From a virus (Duplodnaviria > Heunggongvirae > Uroviricota > Caudoviricetes): a stretch of 64,000 bases of DNA. The stretch covers positions 107,662-171,661 of the IMG/VR virus record IMGVR_UViG_3300028591_000092. One strand, written 5' to 3'. Positions 17,410 to 59,967 of this stretch are shown here, piece by piece. The stretch's first letter is position 1. Each line of letters begins with the position of its first letter. A program made the translations under genes and the position numbers. The notes under the pieces are model-generated. The model had not been told where the DNA came from and did no database searches. It saw only the letters and a program-made list of their open reading frames with translations.

Positions 17410-17426
17410 ATTAAAAATATATTATT

Positions 17427-17504
17427 GGTTGCCCTCCAAGGATTCCAACCTTGCTCCCCTGATTTAGAGTCAGGTATAATCAATTGCAAATATACGAGAG
17501 GGCA
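17427..17504 (-). tRNA. amber suppressor tRNA (anticodon CTA, reads UAG); amino-acid identity not determinable by eye
   Basis: Reverse complement TGCCCTCTCGTATATTTGCAATTGATTATACCTGACTCTAAATCAGGGGAGCAAGGTTGGAATCCTTGGAGGGCAACC. 7-bp acceptor TGCCCTC/GAGGGCA; anticodon stem CCTGA/TCAGG with loop CTCTAAA (U33, CUA, A37); T-arm CAAGG-TTGGAAT-CCTTG. Confidence 0.7.
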
Positions 17505-23777: not shown

Positions 23778-24299
23778 ATGACGTGCCGTTTTAATAATGT
23801 GGTATCGTGTATTAATTTGTCAACACAGATGGCTCTCGTGAGCCTGATTACTGATGGCTTTATGCTCACCACGAGGAAATATCATGGCTGGGTAATTGAG
23901 GGCCCAGATGGGCAGGTTGTTAAACTGTCAAAAGGTCTTAGCCTATGGGCAGACGTGTTTAGGACTTGGAAGCCAGAAGTGTTGAGAGATCGGATAAAGC
24001 TCCGTCTTCGCGGGGCCGAGACACAACTGTGGTTCAGGGGATCGGACCAAATTCCTACTGGCCTTCCAGAAGTGAAGGTAATTAAAAGTAGTCCAACCTG
24101 GCTACAGCATCTAGCAGGGGCAGACTGCTCACTGCCGGCCCCAAAAGAGGGGCAAAGAATAATCTTTGGCACCCTCATATATGAGAGGTGTCTTCTCGTC
24201 GGTGGGGACACCGACAGATGGAAACTTATCGAGTTTCCGTCAGAGACTTTAGCCCGCATATGTTGTGGGGAAGTTGATAACTCGACCGAGCGAGTATAA
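23778..24299 (+). CDS. hypothetical protein in GC-rich island (antisense ORFs 23882..24328 and 23453..23713 are probably artefacts)
   Basis: 173-aa ORF; ~50% GC against a ~30% background. Confidence 0.4.
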   Translation: MTCRFNNVVSCINLSTQMALVSLITDGFMLTTRKYHGWVIEGPDGQVVKLSKGLSLWADVFRTWKPEVLRDRIKLRLRGAETQLWFRGSDQIPTGLPEVKVIKSSPTWLQHLAGADCSLPAPKEGQRIIFGTLIYERCLLVGGDTDRWKLIEFPSETLARICCGEVDNSTERV

Positions 24300-24394
24300 A
24301 TAGACTTTAGGCTCGGTGCGTTGCCCAATCAGAAATGGTTGGGCAGGTAGTATTAACTAAAGTGCGTTAAGGAGCGCACGTTAAACAATAAAAA

Positions 24395-29333: not shown

Positions 29334-29347
29334 TAAAAGAACAGGTG

Positions 29348-29370
29348 TAGTCAAGTAAAGAGATACTTCG
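29348..29370 (+). promoter_or_regulatory. copy a of the conserved 23-nt motif TAGTCA..ACTTCG (abuts the 5' end of tRNA-Gln)
   Basis: tagtcaagtaaagagatacttcg. Confidence 0.4.
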
Positions 29371-29442
29371 ATTTTTTAGCTCATTAGGTAGAGCATAAAG
29401 TTTTGGTCTTTAAGGTAGTTGGTTCAATTCCAACAGAAATCA
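29370..29442 (+). tRNA. tRNA-Gln(TTG)
   Basis: Acceptor GATTTTT/AGAAATC, D-arm GCTC-ATTAGGTA-GAGC, anticodon arm TAAAG-TTTTGGT-CTTTA, T-arm GTTGG-TTCAATT-CCAAC. Confidence 0.7.
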
Positions 29443-29682
29443 ACATTTGTAATACTCTTTACGTTATTCTCACCTTATGGGTATCTCACATTGGTTTGTG
29501 TGATACCTTCTATTTTTTTAAATTGTTACAATTATGGAAGTTAAAGTAGTAGTCAGTCAGAAGGAGGCTGATGTTCAGGAGCTTAATAAGCTTTATGAAC
29601 AAATTCGTATTATTGCCAAAAGATATGGATTTAATCCTAGTAAAATCAACTCATCTTTGGATGAATTAAAAATGGCAATAGT

Positions 29683-30479: not shown

Positions 30480-31860
30480 ACCTAACGTTTGGAAGTTCGG
30501 ACATAAAACTTCAAAGAGGCGACGGTACAGACTTAGCTATTTGTTAAGTAGTCTCATAGACTGGTGATGAACTATTCCAGTCACTCTTTTCTCAATAACC
30601 GAAAGTGGGGGTCCTAAACATAAGTAGCGCTAAAATTATGAACAGGAGTATATAATGAAATACACGGAGAAAAGATTTTATTTTACTGCATAATAGTTCC
30701 GTAAGGACAAATCAGAGAGATACTACGTGCAGGTAATGGCTCTGATTTTTTTAATAGTGTTATTACTCCACTTAATAGAGTAATTAAAGTCCAATTCGGT
30801 CATAAGGACCACGAGAGATGATTGTCTAGGCTCTCACTTTTGACGGATGGAAAGACATCTAAGTTTAGTATTTTGAAAACAAAAGTACTCAGAATAATAC
30901 TCTGTGAAAGTATTTTTTTAAAATCAGAACGAATTGCAATAAGTTCTGATGGAGAGGTTGCAAACTCTCATGGATATGTAGTATAAAGGAGTACTCTGCT
31001 GGGCTAGTGGTTATAAATGCTGTACAAGCTACCAGACTACTCGGCGGCGGCGTAGGTTAGAATCCTACCATATCTTCTAAAATCCATCAAATGACACGAT
31101 GGTTGACTCCTATCAATAGAGTAGGTACAGGCTGTTATTAGAAGCCACACGTCCTCCCGTGAGTGTGAGGTGTCCCAAAGTTATTCTTTTACTGGCACAA
31201 AAGTTTTAGTCAAGAACAAAAAAAGACAATTTTGAGCATAGTCGTCTGATCAGGACTATGCCTTCTATCTAGAGTGATTCTCTAAGGTTGATTACCAATC
31301 ATCTGACACTTTAAAAGTAAGCCAATAGGGGAAACTTTGTCAAAGTTTTAATAGTTTACTGACGTAAGATCTCATCAATCGAAAACTATTTGTTAGTAAA
31401 TATGGTAGCTATTGAGTCGCTCTTAATAGTAGAGGTTCGATTCCTCTTTTACTTCTAAATCCAATTCTCACAATTGGTAGCAGGCTGTAATAGAAGCCAA
31501 GTTTATCACTATAATGCATAAAGTGACATCAAAGAGTTAGATGTAAAATAGGACTGGTCAACTCAAAAAAGATCTTGGGCATAATTGCTTGGTTGTAATT
31601 ATGCTTTCTAATTAGAAAATTTCTTAAAACTATGTACATAAGTTTAACATATCTATTGGGTTGGTTGTTGACTTAGTTTTAAGAGATACTTAAAAATCCA
31701 TTCTATGATACCATGTTTTCGTAGAATAAGTAAGTGACATGGCACAATGCAGTTTGGTGGATTCTGCTTATTTTAGATAATATAATATTGCCATATACAA
31801 CTTTGATAACCAATCAATTTTATATCTTCCCCTCCTAGAATCCGCTAGGAGGGGATAACC
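30480..31860 (+). ncRNA. ~1.4-kb ORF-free structured region with duplicated ~80-100-nt units (31055-31155 and 31425-31505), each holding a T-arm-like hairpin and a GGTA(G)CAGGCTGT.ATAGAAGCCA motif; group-I-like AAGTCCAATTC at 30787
   Basis: No ORF of 60 aa or more on either strand. GTAGGTTAGAATCCTAC and GAGGTTCGATTCCTC hairpins. AAGTCCAATTC is shared with the tRNA-Leu intron at 43985. Confidence 0.35.
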
Positions 31861-46185: not shown

Positions 46186-46494
46186 TTGGTGTGTCTTCGC
46201 AGCCAACATTTTTATTGTATGTTTAAAAAGAATGATATAGTTTTTATTGATAAAAGGCAGTATATAACATACTTTAGATCTGAATGTAGTTTTAAGGAAG
46301 CTGAAGATGCTTTTAATGAAATTGCAAAAGAATATTCTTATTTTATTGTTAAAGCATTTAATAAAAATAAGAATTTAATTAATTTGTTGCCTGTATACAA
46401 GGATGCAAATACAGTAGTTAAACATCTTTGGTTAGATGTTCCTGCTTTTCTTTTTACTAAAATTTATAGAAATATTATTAATTTAGAAAATTAA
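46186..46494 (+). CDS. small protein of the I-x-(D/N)-L C-terminal family
   Basis: ORF track; ends ..NIINLEN. Confidence 0.4.
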   Translation: MVCLRSQHFYCMFKKNDIVFIDKRQYITYFRSECSFKEAEDAFNEIAKEYSYFIVKAFNKNKNLINLLPVYKDANTVVKHLWLDVPAFLFTKIYRNIINLEN

Positions 46495-46524
46495 GACATA
46501 ATAGTCAAATAAAGAATTTCATCG

Positions 46525-46596
46525 ACAGTGATTAGCTCAATTGGTAGAGTACAAAATTTGGTTTTTGAAGTAGTAGGTTCGATTCCTACATTATTG
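46525..46596 (+). tRNA. tRNA with a 6-nt anticodon loop TTTGGT (anticodon ambiguous: TTG or TGG)
   Basis: Acceptor CAGTGAT/ATTATTG, D-arm GCTC-AATTGGTA-GAGT, anticodon stem CAAAA/TTTTG, T-arm GTAGG-TTCGATT-CCTAC. Confidence 0.45.
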
Positions 46597-46634
46597 TAAC
46601 AAAATTTTCTTTATTACTTTCTTTATGTCTTTAT

Positions 46635-46723
46635 GGTCCTTTCGTCTAATAAAGTATTAGTTATACTGGTTAGGACACAAGATCGCTCGGTTTTGGATGA
46701 ATGTTCGAATCATTCAGGGACTA
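46635..46723 (+). ncRNA. tRNA-Glu-derived tRNA-like RNA, paralog of 46008..46119. D-loop hairpin insert AGTAT..ATACT; stem CAAGA/TTTTG closing loop TCGCTCGG; T-arm GAATG-TTCGAAT-CATTC.
   Basis: See finding. The ORF 46633..46893 N-terminus overlaps and is probably spurious there. Confidence 0.5.
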
Positions 46724-46740
46724 CTACTATATTTATTTTT

Positions 46741-47581: not shown

Positions 47582-49273
47582 ATGACAAAAATTAATTCAA
47601 GAAATGCACAATTAAAAAGTGCTTTAGGTGCTATGGCTCCTAAGGAAAGAGTTAAAGAAGTTTTAAATATTCCAAAAGAAGATACTAAGAACCGTCAAGG
47701 TTTTGCAGCATATTCTTTGCCGGAAGAACTTCGTTTAATTAGCATGCTTAACACTCTTAAGGTACAGGAACAATTTTATCGTACCGAAAATAAGCAAATG
47801 CAAGAACTTAGAGATCTTATTGAACGTATAGGATTTAAAGATCCTTATTTTGTAGCTCAGTGTATTAAATACTCTCGATGCATGGGCGAAGGCATGCGTG
47901 ATATTAATAATATTGCTGCAGCTTTATTAGCTCCTTTTGCCTCTGGCCAAGAATGGGCAAAACGTTTCTATAGTCTGTATAATAAGAAAACACAGCTTGG
48001 TGGTTGCATTTTCCGTGCAGATGATATGAATGCAATTAAAACAGTATTTTCTGCTTTAAATACTCCTAAGCTTTCAGCCGCAATGAAAGTTGGTTTTCGT
48101 AATACTTTGGAAGCTCTTGATGCATATCAGTTAGCTAAGTATGCAAAGACAACTCGTGATATTGCAAATCTTGTTCATCCTAATCCTGAGAAATCTAAAG
48201 CAGTTATAACTTTAACTGGTAAAGATCGAGATAAATTTCTTGATGGAAAAGGTTATGATGAAAGTGCTTCTGAAATTACAGTAAAAGTGCTTGATGCTAT
48301 TATGTCCGGTATTACTGTTTCAGCAGATACTTGGGAAGTAGCAAATTCAGAAGCAGGTCAAGAAGTTGCTAAAGCTGTTAAAGCTGGCAAAATTACTGCA
48401 GAAGAAGGTAAAAAGATTTTAGCACAAGCTAAAGATCAGAATTTCCAAGATCTTCTTAAAGAAGGAAAACTTGGTGTTCTTGCTGCTTTGCGTAATATTC
48501 GTCAGATTTTACAATATTCAGATCAGAAAACTGTAGATTTGTTATGTGCTCTTCTTTCCAATCCTGAAAAGATTCGTCAAGGAAAGATCATGCCTTATCA
48601 AATTGATATTGCATATGAAGTATTAAATACTGAATTTCGTTCTTACGATAAGTATACACAAGTTCGTGATGCTTTAGTTCGTGGTTATGAAACTTCTGTC
48701 CCTAATTTAGCTGAAGCTCTTCCTGGAAAGACTTTAGTTATTTTAGATTGTTCTGGTTCAATGTCTGCATTTCTTTATGATTCTGCAAATAAACGTCGTT
48801 TGTATTCTAGTTGTCTTGATAAAGCCTCTTTGATTGCTGCTACTATTGCTAAAGCAACTGGGGCTGATGTTATTCGTTTTGGATCAAGAGCAGAATGGAC
48901 AAGCTACAACAAGAATCATACTGTATTTGATATTGCACAACAATTTGCTGCATCTCGTATGGGATGCACTTATTTGAATTATGCTTGGGATCTTGCTCGT
49001 GTAAGTCATAAAGATTATGATCGAGTAATTATTCTCTCGGATAATGAGTGCAACTCAATGCAAAGAGTGTCAACTTCTTATAAGCAGTATGTGCACGACG
49101 TATGCTCACCATATGTTTATTGTTGTGATATGGCAGCTTATGGAACTACTCCACTTGCAGGCGATAAAGTTAATTATTATTGTGGCTATGGCTATAAGTT
49201 ATTTGACGATATTGCAAGTAACGAGTTTAACCCAATGCAACACATTGAGAAAATAAGAAAGGTAGTCATTTGA
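47582..49273 (+). CDS. Ro60/Rsr-like protein: alpha-helical TROVE-like N-terminal ~370 aa plus C-terminal vWA domain with MIDAS motif
   Basis: 563 aa. VILDCSGSMS (DxSGS MIDAS). Size and architecture match Ro60/Rsr. Surrounded by tRNA-like RNA genes. Confidence 0.6.
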   Translation: MTKINSRNAQLKSALGAMAPKERVKEVLNIPKEDTKNRQGFAAYSLPEELRLISMLNTLKVQEQFYRTENKQMQELRDLIERIGFKDPYFVAQCIKYSRCMGEGMRDINNIAAALLAPFASGQEWAKRFYSLYNKKTQLGGCIFRADDMNAIKTVFSALNTPKLSAAMKVGFRNTLEALDAYQLAKYAKTTRDIANLVHPNPEKSKAVITLTGKDRDKFLDGKGYDESASEITVKVLDAIMSGITVSADTWEVANSEAGQEVAKAVKAGKITAEEGKKILAQAKDQNFQDLLKEGKLGVLAALRNIRQILQYSDQKTVDLLCALLSNPEKIRQGKIMPYQIDIAYEVLNTEFRSYDKYTQVRDALVRGYETSVPNLAEALPGKTLVILDCSGSMSAFLYDSANKRRLYSSCLDKASLIAATIAKATGADVIRFGSRAEWTSYNKNHTVFDIAQQFAASRMGCTYLNYAWDLARVSHKDYDRVIILSDNECNSMQRVSTSYKQYVHDVCSPYVYCCDMAAYGTTPLAGDKVNYYCGYGYKLFDDIASNEFNPMQHIEKIRKVVI

Positions 49274-49301
49274 TTACCTTTCTTATAACTTATATTGACA
49301 T

Positions 49302-49324
49302 TAGTCAGTGATTCACTTACTTCG
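49302..49324 (+). promoter_or_regulatory. copy b of the 23-nt motif
   Basis: tagtcagtgattcacttacttcg. Confidence 0.4.
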
Positions 49325-49326
49325 AA

Positions 49327-49440
49327 TTTGGTCTGCTAAACCGGCGGTCACTGGTTCGAGTCCAGTATATATTATAATATATTAGCTCAGTTGGTAGAGC
49401 GCCTTTTGTTTTATGTGAATTACGTTTTCTATGTCAATTA
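49327..49440 (+). ncRNA. unresolved tRNA-like module. A 3' half (anticodon-arm-like GGTCTGCTAAACC, T-arm ACTGG-TTCGAGT-CCAGT, ATATATT-A) is followed within 2 nt by a 5' half (AATATAT-TA-GCTC-AGTTGGTA-GAGC); the two acceptor strands are complementary to each other.
   Basis: Seen in sequence. Could be a permuted/circularising tRNA-like RNA or two split genes. Confidence 0.3.
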
Positions 49441-49558
49441 TTTTAGTGAGGATAACACTTTAAAACCTTTTATCTATAGTTTTGGGCAAAACTAAGCTGC
49501 TTTAAGAGTTGTGCAGAGGGTAGGATATTCTGCAGATTGCCTATCAAAACTCTTATTC

Positions 49559-49690
49559 GGCGAGCTAGTTAAATAAAAAAGTTTCACTCTAGTCTATATT
49601 CTTCGTAAGATAGTCATGATTTAGAGTTACTTCGGTTATAACAATTTCCTCCTAAGAAATCATATCCAGGTTCGAGTCCTGGGCTCGCCA
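49559..49690 (+). tRNA. tRNA-Arg(CCT)-like with a ~65-nt D-loop insertion that contains motif copy c
   Basis: Acceptor GGCGAGC/GCTCGCC (7/7), D-stem GTTA/TAAC, anticodon arm ATTTC-CTCCTAA-GAAAT, T-arm CCAGG-TTCGAGT-CCTGG. Confidence 0.45.
49611..49635 (+). promoter_or_regulatory. copy c of the 23-nt motif (inside the tRNA-Arg D-loop insert)
   Basis: tagtcatgatttagagttacttcgg. Confidence 0.4.
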
Positions 49691-49700
49691 CTATAAACTA

Positions 49701-49722
49701 TAGTCATAGATGAGTTACTTCG
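49701..49722 (+). promoter_or_regulatory. copy d of the 23-nt motif
   Basis: tagtcatagatgagttacttcg. Confidence 0.4.
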
Positions 49723-49871
49723 TGCATTAGTAAGAAAAAATTATGAATTTTTTCCACGTAGCTGTCACTAATGGGACAGACGTTGTTATACCGTAACGAC
49801 AAGAACGGTATTGACAGATGGCAAAGACCTCTTTCTCATCTAGTTTTCTTAGTTTATTTACTATATCTGTA

Positions 49872-49894
49872 TAGTCAAAAGAACACTTACTTCG
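49872..49894 (+). promoter_or_regulatory. copy e of the 23-nt motif
   Basis: tagtcaaaagaacacttacttcg. Confidence 0.4.
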
Positions 49895-49949
49895 AAATAA
49901 ATTTGGGATTTTATTATATTATAGTGTTTTTATTGTTCTTACAGATTAT

Positions 49950-50451: not shown

Positions 50452-50536
50452 GGCGCTATCGACTAGTGGTTTAGGTCGCTGCTCTTTCAAGGCAGTTGGA
50501 TGTAAATCCTCACGAGTTCGAATCTCGTTGGCGCTA
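50452..50536 (+). tRNA. tRNA-Glu(TTC) with a 16-nt hairpin (GGAT-GTAA-ATCC) inserted in the variable region
   Basis: Acceptor GGCGCTA/TGGCGCT (G1-U72), D-arm GACT-AGTGGTTTA-GGTC, anticodon arm CTGCT-CTTTCAA-GGCAG, T-arm ACGAG-TTCGAAT-CTCGT. Confidence 0.6.
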
Positions 50537-50549
50537 CAATATACCATAA

Positions 50550-50572
50550 TAGTCATGTAAATACTTACTTCG
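50550..50572 (+). promoter_or_regulatory. copy f of the 23-nt motif, followed by T-arm-like hairpin GCCAG-TTCGAGT-CTGGT
   Basis: tagtcatgtaaatacttacttcg. Confidence 0.4.
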
Positions 50573-50692
50573 TTTATGCCAGTTCGAGTCTGGTTTTTCG
50601 TACATTACGAAAGTGGCGGAAAGGTAAACGCGCAAATCTGAAACATTTGTTAATAACATCATATCAGTATTTATAATTTTCTTTATGGTTTT

Positions 50693-50826
50693 GGTCCTCT
50701 CGTCTAGTGGGATAACTAGGATATTCAGCAAGTAAGAGATGTAATGATAAGCTTCATCTTATCTATGTTATCAAAGGACATTAAATCGCTCGGTTTAAGA
50801 CAGAAGTTCGAATCTTCTGGGGACTA
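50693..50826 (+). ncRNA. tRNA-Glu-derived tRNA-like RNA, third member of the TCGCTCGG-loop family. ~70-nt D-loop insertion; stem TTAAA/TTTAA; T-arm AGAAG-TTCGAAT-CTTCT.
   Basis: See finding. Confidence 0.5.
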
Positions 50827-50843
50827 CTAAAATTTTTAAAATT

Positions 50844-59201: not shown

Positions 59202-59274
59202 GACACGTTAGTTCAGTAGGTTAAAATGTTAGCCTGTCACGCTAATGTCACGGGTTCGAATCCCGTACGTGTCG
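59202..59274 (+). tRNA. tRNA-Asp(GTC)
   Basis: Acceptor GACACGT/ACGTGTC, anticodon arm TTAGC-CTGTCAC-GCTAA, T-arm ACGGG-TTCGAAT-CCCGT. Confidence 0.7.
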
Positions 59275-59280
59275 CAATAT

Positions 59281-59357
59281 ATGACCGAGATAGCTCAGTC
59301 GGTTAGAACTGCATCTTACAAATGTTCTTGTTAAGAGTTCTAATCTCTTTTGTCATT
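59281..59357 (+). tRNA. degenerate tRNA-like (possible Val-TAC-like): D-arm GCTC-AGTCGGTTA-GAAC, loop CTTACAA, T-arm AAGAG-TTCTAAT-CTCTT
   Basis: Imperfect acceptor and anticodon stems. Confidence 0.3.
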
Positions 59358-59440
59358 CAAAAACACAGAGTAAGGTGACTGATAGAACAGTCCCTGTAAG
59401 TTCTTGTGATTCGCAACAAGTTTATAAATGTTCTGCAATC

Positions 59441-59896: not shown

Positions 59897-59919
59897 TAGT
59901 AGTTAAAGAGATACTTCGG
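59897..59919 (+). promoter_or_regulatory. copy g of the 23-nt motif
   Basis: tagtagttaaagagatacttcgg. Confidence 0.35.
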
Positions 59920-59967
59920 TTATGTGGAAATAATAAAAAAGCTCTCTTTATTGGTTCTTACCTTTAT

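What the first reader, a model, noticed from the sequence alone, without database searches (positions are those of the whole stretch)
49296..49700. Unusual tRNA architectures: adjacent 3'-half/5'-half arrangement and a tRNA-Arg(CCT) whose D-loop insert carries the conserved motif
At 49327-49400 a tRNA 3' portion (anticodon-arm-like, T-arm, ATATATT-A) is followed 1-2 nt later by a tRNA 5' portion (AATATAT-TA-GCTCAGTTGGTAGAGC). The two acceptor strands are mutually complementary, as in permuted or circularly processed tRNA-like RNAs. At 49559-49690 a 7/7 acceptor pairing (GGCGAGC/GCTCGCC) encloses a tRNA-Arg(CCT) body with a 65-nt D-loop insertion containing motif copy c.
Basis: seen in the sequence. 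Interest (0 to 1): 0.55.

Follow-up and report, generated by a model that had tools for sequence, protein, structure and literature searches.

The report
Phage Y RNA cluster beside Ro60
The odd "tRNAs" are most likely not decoding tRNAs but tRNA-shaped Y RNAs, a family of small scaffold RNAs encoded right after a phage Ro60 gene, each carrying the same conserved stem that probably docks Ro60; one of them has a layout not described before.

Summary
Both observations are real. They sit directly downstream of a divergent Ro60/Rsr gene (47582-49273).

**Element a (49294-49438).** This is a YrlA-type Y RNA. A long 5'/3' stem encloses a circularly permuted tRNA mimic: anticodon-like hairpin, T-arm, closed acceptor hairpin, D-arm. 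A covariance model built only from other phages finds it at 75.8 bits, E=1e-14.

**Element c (49559-49690).** The "tRNA-Arg(CCT)" is the same RNA kind in tRNA topology. It has an open 7-bp acceptor, and the stem module is a GNRA-capped hairpin inserted at the D-arm. Four unique examples (five loci) occur among these phages.

**The motif.** The repeated motif belongs to a two-stranded module: outer helix / UAGUCA / inner helix / UUACUUCG ... inner helix / UUUUCU / outer helix.
- About 100 copies occur in 68 Ro60 loci: 104 on the Ro60 strand, 3 on the other.
- All 14 tested base pairs covary.
- 73% of copies lie within 2.5 kb of Ro60.
- The window holds at least eight copies.

**Cargo.** It ranges from a bare anticodon-loop hairpin to full tRNA-like cloverleaves, in native or permuted order.

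**Status.** Ro60 binding is inferred, not shown. This is a new variant of a known kind: phage Y RNAs, tRNA mimicry.

The parts
47582..49273 (+). Ro60/Rsr (TROVE + vWA) homologue, 563 aa
   Evidence: Pfam vWA_Ro60 4e-5 and TROVE 2e-3, both below the curated cutoffs. A profile of 5 homologues hits PDB phage phiLo Ro60 9L5Y/9KOP at 3e-13, Xenopus Ro60 1YVP at 9e-11, human RO60 and D. radiodurans Rsr.
49294..49438 (+). Y RNA 'a' (YrlA-type). Layout: outer helix 49294-301/49431-38; UAGUCA 49302-07; inner helix 49308-16/49415-23; UUACUUCG 49317-24; anticodon-like hairpin 49328-44; T-arm 49350-66; closed acceptor hairpin 49367-82; D-arm 49385-400; 3' internal-loop strand GUUUUCU 49424-30.
   Evidence: Rfam YrlA 41.3 bits. 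Independent model R1 75.8 bits, E=1.4e-14. MFE recovers the stems, z=-2.6. RNAalifold on 7 homologues gives 33 pairs, 21 with compensatory changes. The rotated sequence is a 75-nt cloverleaf.
49559..49690 (+). Y RNA 'c' (tRNA topology). Layout: acceptor 49559-65/49683-89 plus A49690; inner helix 3' strand 49587-94; AUUCU loop strand 49595-602; cap UC-GUAA-GA 49603-10; UAGUCA 49611-16; inner helix 5' strand 49617-26; UUACUUCG 49627-34 (doubles as the D-arm 5' side); anticodon arm (CCU) 49644-60; T-arm 49666-82.
   Evidence: Rfam tRNA model positions 9-63 at 49625-82, 29.7 bits. MFE cloverleaf plus hairpin, z=-3.2. Minus the 58-nt insert it is ARAGORN tRNA-Arg(CCT). Homologues with covarying GNRA-capped modules are in L178, L133/L140 and L155.
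49693..49857 (+). Y RNA 'd'. Outer helix ATAAACTA/TAGTTTAT; inner helix TAGATGAG/CTCATCTA; 3' loop GUUUUCU; 112-nt cargo without an obvious tRNA arm.
   Evidence: MFE recovers both helices.
49865..49946 (+). Y RNA 'e' (short). The module plus a single anticodon-arm-like hairpin (loop UUUGGGA).
50543..50689 (+). Y RNA 'f'. The module plus a permuted tRNA-like cargo: T-arm 50578-94, closed 7-bp acceptor hairpin UUUUCGU/ACGAAAG.
   Evidence: R1 40.5 bits, E=1.3e-6, full length. The rotated cargo is called a tRNA by ARAGORN.
46493..46631 (+). Y RNA 'h', about 950 nt upstream of Ro60. Outer helix AAGACATAA/TTATGTCTT; UAGUCA; inner helix AATAAAGAA/TTCTTTATT; variant motif UUUCAUCG; 3' loop ACUUUCU. 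The cargo is a tRNA-like cloverleaf in native order with an aberrant anticodon loop (46525-46598).
   Evidence: R1 30.7 bits, full length. Sequence. ARAGORN 'tRNA-???'.
29343..29475 (+). The same module wrapped around a complete tRNA-Gln(UUG)-like cloverleaf (29370-29442), 18 kb from Ro60.
   Evidence: MFE shows module plus cloverleaf. Rfam tRNA 64.5 bits. R1 20.2 bits.

Best explanation
The region is a tandem cluster of Y RNA genes serving the phage Ro60 encoded just upstream.

Each RNA has two parts.
(i) A conserved stem-internal loop-stem module:
- 5' side: outer helix, UAGUCA, inner helix, UUACUUCG.
- 3' side: inner helix, (G/A)UUUUCU, outer helix.
- I infer this is the Ro60 docking site. 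It is equivalent to the stem-bulge-stem plus CGAA/GNCGAA element of known Y RNAs.
(ii) A variable cargo that imitates all or part of a tRNA.

In element a the cargo is a complete cloverleaf. Its acceptor is closed by a loop, and its ends open at the D-stem/anticodon-stem junction (YrlA-type permutation).

In element c the permutation is reversed. The acceptor is open, as in a tRNA, and the module is closed by a 2-bp helix plus a GUAA tetraloop and inserted at the D-arm.

I infer that the RNP works like other Ro60-Y RNA particles. The module holds Ro60. The tRNA-like part recruits or occupies proteins that recognise tRNA shape or anticodon loops (RNase P, CCA enzyme, modification enzymes, PNPase, possibly host anticodon nucleases). 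This would steer RNA decay, surveillance or counter-defence during infection.

Shown here: the Ro60 homology, the RNA structures and their covariation, the co-location, and the family membership of a.
Inferred: Ro60 binding to the module, expression and processing, and the downstream function.
For: - Ro60 identity.
- YrlA match inside a. A related locus gives a full-length YrlA match in which the motif's CUUCGA aligns to the family's conserved cggCGA.
- Independent covariance model: a at 75.8 bits, E=1.4e-14; f at 40.5 bits. All 91 matches in 47 Ro60 loci are on the Ro60 strand.
- Module search: 107 unique hits in 68 loci, 104 on the Ro60 strand and 3 opposite under identical criteria.
- Covariation: 90.7% of cells paired against 35-51% when slid. 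All 14 pairs show compensatory changes. Covariation score 0.917 against 0.22 in shuffles, 0/500.
- Co-location: 73% of modules within 2.5 kb of Ro60 against 28% expected.
- Loci found by motif alone: the only two with clear modules both carry Ro60.
- A 635-kb phage whose Ro60 is 30% identical has two modules 360-450 nt upstream of the gene.
- The c-type permutation keeps every module part in RNA-meaningful order, with covarying caps UC-GUAA-GA, CCA-GUAA-UGG, UCA-GCAA-UGA and CUC-GAAA-GAG.
- tRNA mimicry: 34 of 38 permuted cargos become ARAGORN tRNAs after rotation, none before.
- Literature: YrlA lies near Ro60 in 254 bacteria and 22 phages (PMC4201824). Phage phiLo Ro60 binds two adjacent stem-bulge-stem RNAs through a CGAA motif and binds host PNPase (PMC12135203).
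Against: - No binding or expression data exist for this clade.
- The a match to Rfam YrlA is below the curated threshold (41.3 against 69 bits).
- The strict GNCGAAN0-1G motif is only partly present: UUCGAA in a and e, UUCGN in the others.
- Modules also enclose high-scoring tRNA cloverleaves far from Ro60 (29343-29475). This fits a general leader/trailer processing stem as well.
- The covariation alignment was assembled from duplex predictions, so it leans towards pairing.
- Modules and tRNA genes both cluster near Ro60, so the distance test is not fully independent.
Confidence: 0.78

Rival explanations
1. They are genuine permuted or insert-bearing tRNA genes. Processing (circularisation and cleavage, or excision of the 58-nt insert) would yield decoding tRNA-Ser(GCU) and tRNA-Arg(CCU).
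For: - The rotated a and the insert-deleted c are textbook 75-nt cloverleaves.
- Acceptor stems are 7 bp in 35 of 38 homologues.
- Two c-type homologues encode A-CCA after the acceptor.
- M. smegmatis YrlA is cut by RNase P and receives CCA (PMC4201824).
Against: - The a 'tRNA-Ser' has a class-I body without the long variable arm.
- Orthologous cargos with near-identical bodies carry UGG, UAG, CAG, AGG, GUG or GCU anticodons, including Leu and Ser on short-arm bodies.
- The acceptor of a is a conserved closed hairpin, and the conserved ends are the outer stem.
- No bulge-helix-bulge is evident on inspection, and no group I intron family is matched.
- AGG is only 7% of Arg codons, while AGA (43%) has no phage tRNA in the window.
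- The D-arm is absent from the c-type homologues in L133 and L155.
Confidence: 0.07
2. The module is a processing or stability stem for phage small RNAs and pre-tRNAs. It would be a leader-trailer helix cut by RNase III or a phage nuclease, and it lies near Ro60 only because both sit in the tRNA island.
For: - The module flanks complete tRNA-like cloverleaves, with the motif ending exactly at tRNA position +1 (29343-29475; L063 tRNA-Pro).
- The stem is about 16 bp, like rRNA and phage RNase III sites.
- Some modules lie 6-18 kb from Ro60.
Against: - The most conserved nucleotides are single-stranded (UAGUCA, UUUCU, UUACUUCG), which suggests sequence-specific protein recognition.
- Modules hug Ro60 on both sides across 30-57% protein identity.
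- In the c-type the module is an internal capped hairpin that cannot act as a leader-trailer stem.
- The architecture equals the Ro60-bound stem-bulge-stem of phiLo Yrl RNAs (PMC12135203).
Confidence: 0.12
3. The motif is a DNA-level signal (a promoter or recombination site) and the tRNA-like pieces are decayed or rearranged tRNA genes.
For: - The motif has a fixed two-box layout (UAGUCA, 8-10 nt, UUACUUCG) on one strand. It recurs in front of tRNA-like genes.
- An AGTTA direct repeat flanks the insert in c.
Against: - Helices on both sides of the boxes covary, including sequence upstream of the first box.
- The permuted c-type preserves RNA pairing but not DNA order.
- Homologues are conserved with compensatory changes across distant phages.
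- The sigma-70-like scan shows no enrichment.
Confidence: 0.03

Closest known systems
YrlA Y RNAs (Salmonella, M. smegmatis, mycobacteriophages; Rfam RF02553; Chen et al. 2014, PMC4201824)
   Same: - Encoded within a few kb of Ro60 on the same strand.
- A 5'/3' stem plus a tRNA-like domain ordered T-arm, closed acceptor-like hairpin, D-arm.
- A conserved CGA-containing motif on the 5' side.
- A 7-bp acceptor, as in M. smegmatis.
   Different: - Scores below the Rfam threshold.
- The stem is a two-helix module with its own conserved loop strands (UAGUCA / UUUUCU) and UUACUUCG instead of GNCGAAN0-1G.
- A canonical 5-bp/7-nt anticodon-arm mimic precedes the T-arm.
- At least eight module copies occur in this 64-kb window, six of them within about 1.5 kb of the Ro60 gene.
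Thermus phage phiLo Yrl1/Yrl2 with phage Ro60 (PMC12135203; PDB 9L5Y)
   Same: - Phage Ro60 with several adjacent stem-bulge-stem RNAs carrying a CGAA-type motif.
- It is the closest solved Ro60 by sequence.
   Different: - The phiLo RNAs are not described as tRNA mimics.
- Protein identity is low.
- The motif and loop sequences differ.
D. radiodurans Yrn1
   Same: A tRNA-like domain in the other orientation, with the Ro60 stem in place of the acceptor. This resembles the native-order cargos here (h; L063 1641).
   Different: No such module motif. It is a single dominant Y RNA.
Circularly permuted tRNA genes (Cyanidioschyzon merolae) and two-piece tmRNA genes
   Same: The 3' half is encoded upstream of the 5' half, and the acceptor strands are complementary.
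   Different: - Those are processed into functional linear molecules via bulge-helix-bulge or tmRNA-specific cuts.
- Here the acceptor stays a hairpin and the termini form a Ro60-type stem.
- ARAGORN finds no tmRNA.
E. coli phage Bas63 gp130 and Listeria phage CKA15 Rsr-like loci (PMC11482910, PMC12282133)
   Same: A Ro60-like gene next to 'tRNA' genes or highly abundant small RNAs. The authors suspect these are Y RNAs.
   Different: Those RNAs are uncharacterised. No homology to this clade was detected at the DNA level.

Membership tests
YrlA-type Y RNA | Encoded within about 4 kb of a Ro60 orthologue on the same strand | tested here: met
   Element a starts 21 nt after the Ro60 stop codon, on the + strand.
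YrlA-type Y RNA | T-arm, closed acceptor-like stem-loop and D-arm in that order, enclosed by a 5'/3' stem | tested here: met
   Rfam alignment over model positions 17-92. RNAalifold consensus. R1 full-length match.
YrlA-type Y RNA | Reaches the Rfam RF02553 gathering score (69 bits) | tested here: not met
   41.3 bits in the window and 31.9 bits in L004. It is a divergent clade.
YrlA-type Y RNA | GNCGAAN0-1G motif near the 5' end | tested here: inconclusive
   Element a has CUUCGAAUUUG (CGAA present, first G absent). The family-wide consensus is UUACUUCG/A. Rfam aligns the motif's CUUCGA to the model's cggCGA.
YrlA-type Y RNA | Bound by Ro60/Rsr; carries tRNA modifications; RNase P substrate | not testable with these tools
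   Needs RIP, EMSA and enzymology.
Permuted tRNA gene (C. merolae type) | 3' half upstream of 5' half with complementary acceptor strands | tested here: met
Permuted tRNA gene (C. merolae type) | Leader and trailer form a bulge-helix-bulge for the splicing endonuclease, and the body matches its anticodon identity | tested here: not met
   The termini form a 7-8 bp + 9 bp stem with a 6x7-nt internal loop. The Ser anticodon sits on a class-I body. Anticodons drift among orthologues.
Intron-containing tRNA (element c) | Insert is a group I intron, or sits at the canonical 37/38 position | tested here: not met
   The 58-nt insert lies at positions 9/10 or in the D-loop. No intron family is matched in Rfam. 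ARAGORN intron mode finds nothing there.
Phage Ro60-clade stem module (defined here) | Two covarying helices separated by UAGNNA / NUUNCU loop strands and followed by UUACUUCR | tested here: met
   Elements a, d, e, f, g and h carry it in linear form. Element c carries it in capped, permuted form.

The most novel reading that the evidence does not exclude
The module may be a portable Ro60 tag that these phages graft onto tRNA bodies at any junction: acceptor ends, position 9/10, position 26/27, or the variable loop.

Some tagged molecules are full cloverleaves, including c-types with an encoded CCA end. These would be real or semi-functional tRNAs or anticodon-loop decoys whose maturation, repair or sacrifice to host anticodon nucleases is run by Ro60.

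That would tie Ro60/Y RNA biology directly to phage tRNA islands and to anti-defence. It would also show living intermediates in the evolution of Y RNAs from tRNAs.
Probability: 0.2. Interest if true: 0.85.

Novelty: new variant of a known kind. Interest (0 to 1): 0.6.

Why it matters
Why bacterial Y RNAs imitate tRNA is still an open question, as is what phage Ro60 proteins do.

This uncultured large-phage clade offers a natural experiment:
- There are about 100 module-bearing RNAs around one protein.
- The docking module is constant.
- The tRNA-like part is presented in four circular permutations and in minimal form (anticodon arm only).

That gives a direct handle for binding, processing and decoy assays. 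It also gives a clear rule for annotators: 'odd tRNAs' next to a TROVE/Ro60 gene, flanked by UAGUCA...UUACUUCG, are Y RNAs and not decoding tRNAs or pseudogenes.

Tried and rejected
- DNA similarity to known phages found only tRNA-Lys matches. No cultured relative exists; the best Ro60 in GenBank phages is 30% identical.
- The exact motif scan of viral contigs returned mostly chance hits (14 specified bases) and was of little use beyond L063 and L050.
- A hammerhead, hairpin-ribozyme or UUCG-tetraloop reading of the motif was considered from the sequence and dropped. The required partner strands are absent, and the nucleotides after UUCG vary.
- A consistent D-arm-like hairpin around the motif was rejected, because the pairing register differs between copies.
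- MAFFT/RNAalifold on the four c-type RNAs aligned poorly and recovered only the acceptor, the cap and part of the T-arm. The c-type module was therefore read by hand.
- My regex for D-arms failed. It was replaced by the rotation test.
- The 121-nt spacer 49438-49558 is not unusually structured, z=+0.8.
- The genome-collection scan gave one contig, binned as a rumen Firmicutes MAG. It equals a 410-kb IMG/VR contig in length, so it gives no host information.
- A review cited for phage Y RNAs (PMC10870794) is not held in the library.

Full report
**Context**

The window is AT-rich (32% GC) phage-like DNA with about two dozen tRNA genes and a Pistol ribozyme. The finding lies immediately after a 563-aa ORF at 47582-49273.

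Pfam gives that ORF only weak vWA_Ro60 and TROVE matches. A profile of it and four homologues hits solved Ro60 proteins: phage phiLo Ro60 at 3e-13, Xenopus Ro60 at 9e-11, human RO60, and D. radiodurans Rsr. It is a divergent Ro60/Rsr.

**The observation**

At 49328-49400 there is, in order:
- an anticodon-arm-like hairpin;
- a T-arm;
- an AU-only hairpin whose two strands are the '3' and 5' acceptor strands';
- a perfect D-arm.

At 49559-49690 a 7/7 acceptor encloses an anticodon arm (CCU), a T-arm and a ~58-nt insert.

ARAGORN and Rfam at gathering threshold call neither element. With permissive thresholds:
- Rfam matches 49338-49411 to YrlA, the bacterial Y RNA family, at 41.3 bits, E=3e-7;
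- Rfam matches 49625-49682 to tRNA model positions 9-63.

In silico, rotating element a at its acceptor loop gives a 75-nt cloverleaf. Deleting 49568-49625 from element c gives a 75-nt tRNA-Arg(CCT).

**The module**

The motif TTACTTCG occurs six times in the window against 1.4 expected. Five of the six lie within 1.3 kb on the + strand, and each is preceded at 8-10 nt by TAGTCA.

The sequences around these boxes pair with sequences downstream of the cargo. The full layout is:
- outer helix;
- UAGUCA;
- inner helix;
- UUACUUCG;
- cargo;
- inner helix;
- (G/A)UUUUCU;
- outer helix.

The helices differ completely in sequence between copies but stay complementary. Plain MFE folding recovers the module in a, d, e, f and g.

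I fetched 67 viral loci encoding Ro60 homologues of 36-57% identity and applied one regex plus RNAduplex filter to both strands. This gave 107 unique modules: 104 on the Ro60 strand and 3 on the other.

On 82 trimmed modules:
- 90.7% of cells pair, against 35-51% for slid controls;
- all 14 pairs show compensatory changes;
- no shuffle reaches the covariation score.
One caveat applies: this alignment was assembled from predicted duplexes.

Further evidence of association with Ro60:
- 73% of modules lie within 2.5 kb of Ro60, against 28% expected.
- Among 120 loci found by the motif alone, the only two with clear modules both contain a Ro60 gene.
- A 635-kb uncultured phage with a 30%-identical Ro60 has two modules just upstream of the gene.

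**Element a**

RNAalifold on seven homologues predicts both module helices, a 5-bp/7-nt anticodon-arm mimic, the T-arm, a 7-bp closed acceptor hairpin and the D-arm. Of the 33 pairs, 21 have compensatory changes.

A covariance model built from seven homologues without the window sequence finds 49294-49440 end to end at 75.8 bits, E=1.4e-14. It also finds f at 50542-50692 at 40.5 bits. In 47 Ro60 loci all 91 of its matches are on the Ro60 strand.

Element a is therefore a member of a conserved, structured RNA family. Its tRNA-like domain is circularly permuted at the D-stem/anticodon-stem junction, as in YrlA (PMC4201824).

Across the family, 34 of 38 permuted cargos become ARAGORN tRNAs after rotation, and none before. 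Some are opened in the variable loop rather than at position 26/27.

**Element c**

Read at the RNA level, the insert contains every module part in permuted order:
- inner-helix 3' strand CUCUAGUC;
- UAUAUUCU;
- a 2-bp helix capped by GUAA;
- UAGUCA;
- inner-helix 5' strand GAUUUAGAG;
- UUACUUCG.

The same arrangement occurs in L178, L133/L140 and L155. In each it sits between a perfect 7-bp open acceptor and an anticodon-like hairpin. The caps covary: CCA-GUAA-UGG, UCA-GCAA-UGA and CUC-GAAA-GAG. Two of these homologues end in A-CCA.

So c is the topological inverse of a. The acceptor is open and the module is closed. This conservation of RNA order, not DNA order, argues strongly against a promoter or other DNA signal.

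In the window copy, UUACUUCGG can also form the 5' side and loop of a D-arm, or the whole insert can sit in a D-loop. The L133 and L155 homologues lack a D-arm, so that feature is not essential.

**Why these are not decoding tRNAs**

- The rotated a is a 'tRNA-Ser(GCU)' without the long variable arm.
- Native-order cargos that are almost identical between phages carry UGG, UAG, CAG, AGG, GUG or GCU anticodons, again including Leu and Ser on short-arm bodies.
- AGG is 7% of Arg codons. The dominant AGA has no phage tRNA in the window.
- I saw no bulge-helix-bulge on inspection, and no intron family is matched.

The question stays open for full cloverleaves such as g, at 64.5 bits in Rfam. That is why the processing-stem rival and the 'tagged tRNA' reading keep some probability.

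**Mechanism**

Known Ro60 proteins, including a phage one, bind a stem-bulge-stem with a CGAA-type 5'-strand motif. They use the rest of the Y RNA to engage PNPase or other factors (PMC4201824, PMC12135203).

The module here has that architecture. In a related locus Rfam aligns its CUUCGA to the family's conserved CGA.

I therefore infer three things:
- Ro60 docks on the module.
- The tRNA-like or anticodon-loop cargo recruits or decoys tRNA-recognising proteins.
- The 7-bp acceptors make RNase P cleavage plausible, as in M. smegmatis.

Reports that Bas63 gp130 (Ro60-like, next to 'tRNA' genes) counters a defence system fit a role in infection. So do reports of abundant small RNAs next to an Rsr-like gene in Listeria phage CKA15 (PMC11482910, PMC12282133). 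None of this is shown for this clade.

**Inventory in the window**

- h: 46493-46631
- Ro60 gene: 47582-49273
- a: 49294-49438
- c: 49559-49690
- d: 49693-49857
- e: 49865-49946
- tRNA-Lys
- a small ORF
- tRNA-Glu
- f: 50543-50689
- g: 29343-29475, far from the cluster
- a degenerate copy near 59900

**Verdict**

This is a phage Y RNA cluster, which is a known kind. Three features are, as far as I could find, undescribed:
- the clade-specific module;
- its copy number;
- the capped, tRNA-topology c-type.

Noticed in passing
window 24280-24352 (+): Pistol self-cleaving ribozyme, Rfam 68.2 bits (gathering score 34.5), overlapping the end of ORF 23778-24299.
   Followed up: no
window 17426-17504 (-) and 1-23000: A suppressor-type tRNA with anticodon CUA (ARAGORN calls it 'Pyl'). 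Long ORFs are scarce in parts of the first 23 kb. This may mean TAG is reassigned in part of the genome.
   Followed up: no
window 46634-46727 and 50691-50828 (+): Two paralogous tRNA-like elements lie directly 3' of modules h and f. They share GGTCCTNTCGTCTA... at the 5' end and ...ATCGCTCGGTTT...GTTCGAATC...GGGACTACTA at the 3' end, and they carry inserts of different length. Neither ARAGORN (with or without intron mode) nor Rfam calls them.
   Followed up: partly
window 50452-50537 (+): A tRNA-Glu(UUC) of 86 nt with a 14-nt extra arm (GGAU-GUAA-AUCC). That is unusual for a class-I tRNA, so it may be another mimic.
   Followed up: no
window 49253-49286 (+): A 15-bp hairpin spans the Ro60 stop codon, with TAGTCA in its apical part and a T-poor tail. 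It may be a processing or regulatory stem between the Ro60 mRNA and Y RNA a.
   Followed up: no
window 49887-49930; L139 9467, L157 14048, L166 3026, L188 3266: Short-cargo Y RNAs carry only an anticodon-arm-like hairpin. Its 7-nt loop is often CUUUUAA, the tRNA-Lys(UUU) loop that PrrC-type nucleases target, or UUUGG(G)A. This hints at anticodon-loop decoys.
   Followed up: partly
window 49567-49571 and 49625-49629: A 5-nt direct repeat, AGTTA, brackets the 58-nt insert of element c. It gives two alternative D-stems and hints that the module was grafted in by recombination at the motif.
   Followed up: partly
window 59900-59960 and 59289-59360 (+): A degenerate short module (TAGTTA-AAGAG-ATACTTCG ... 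CTCTT) lies just before tRNA-Gln 59968. An uncalled degenerate tRNA follows tRNA-Asp; model R1 hits 59209-59335 at 33 bits, probably a tandem-tRNA artefact.
   Followed up: no
window 29370, 45634, 59968; 30972-31076: ARAGORN calls three tRNA-Gln(UUG) genes, and one of them is the cargo of module g. Rfam also calls a 105-nt tRNA at 30972-31076 that ARAGORN misses.
   Followed up: no
L195 / L175: The only hit in the species-genome collection is a 410,106-bp contig binned as an uncultured rumen Firmicutes MAG (RUG343). It has the same length as an IMG/VR viral contig, so it is probably a very large phage mis-binned as a bacterium.
   Followed up: no
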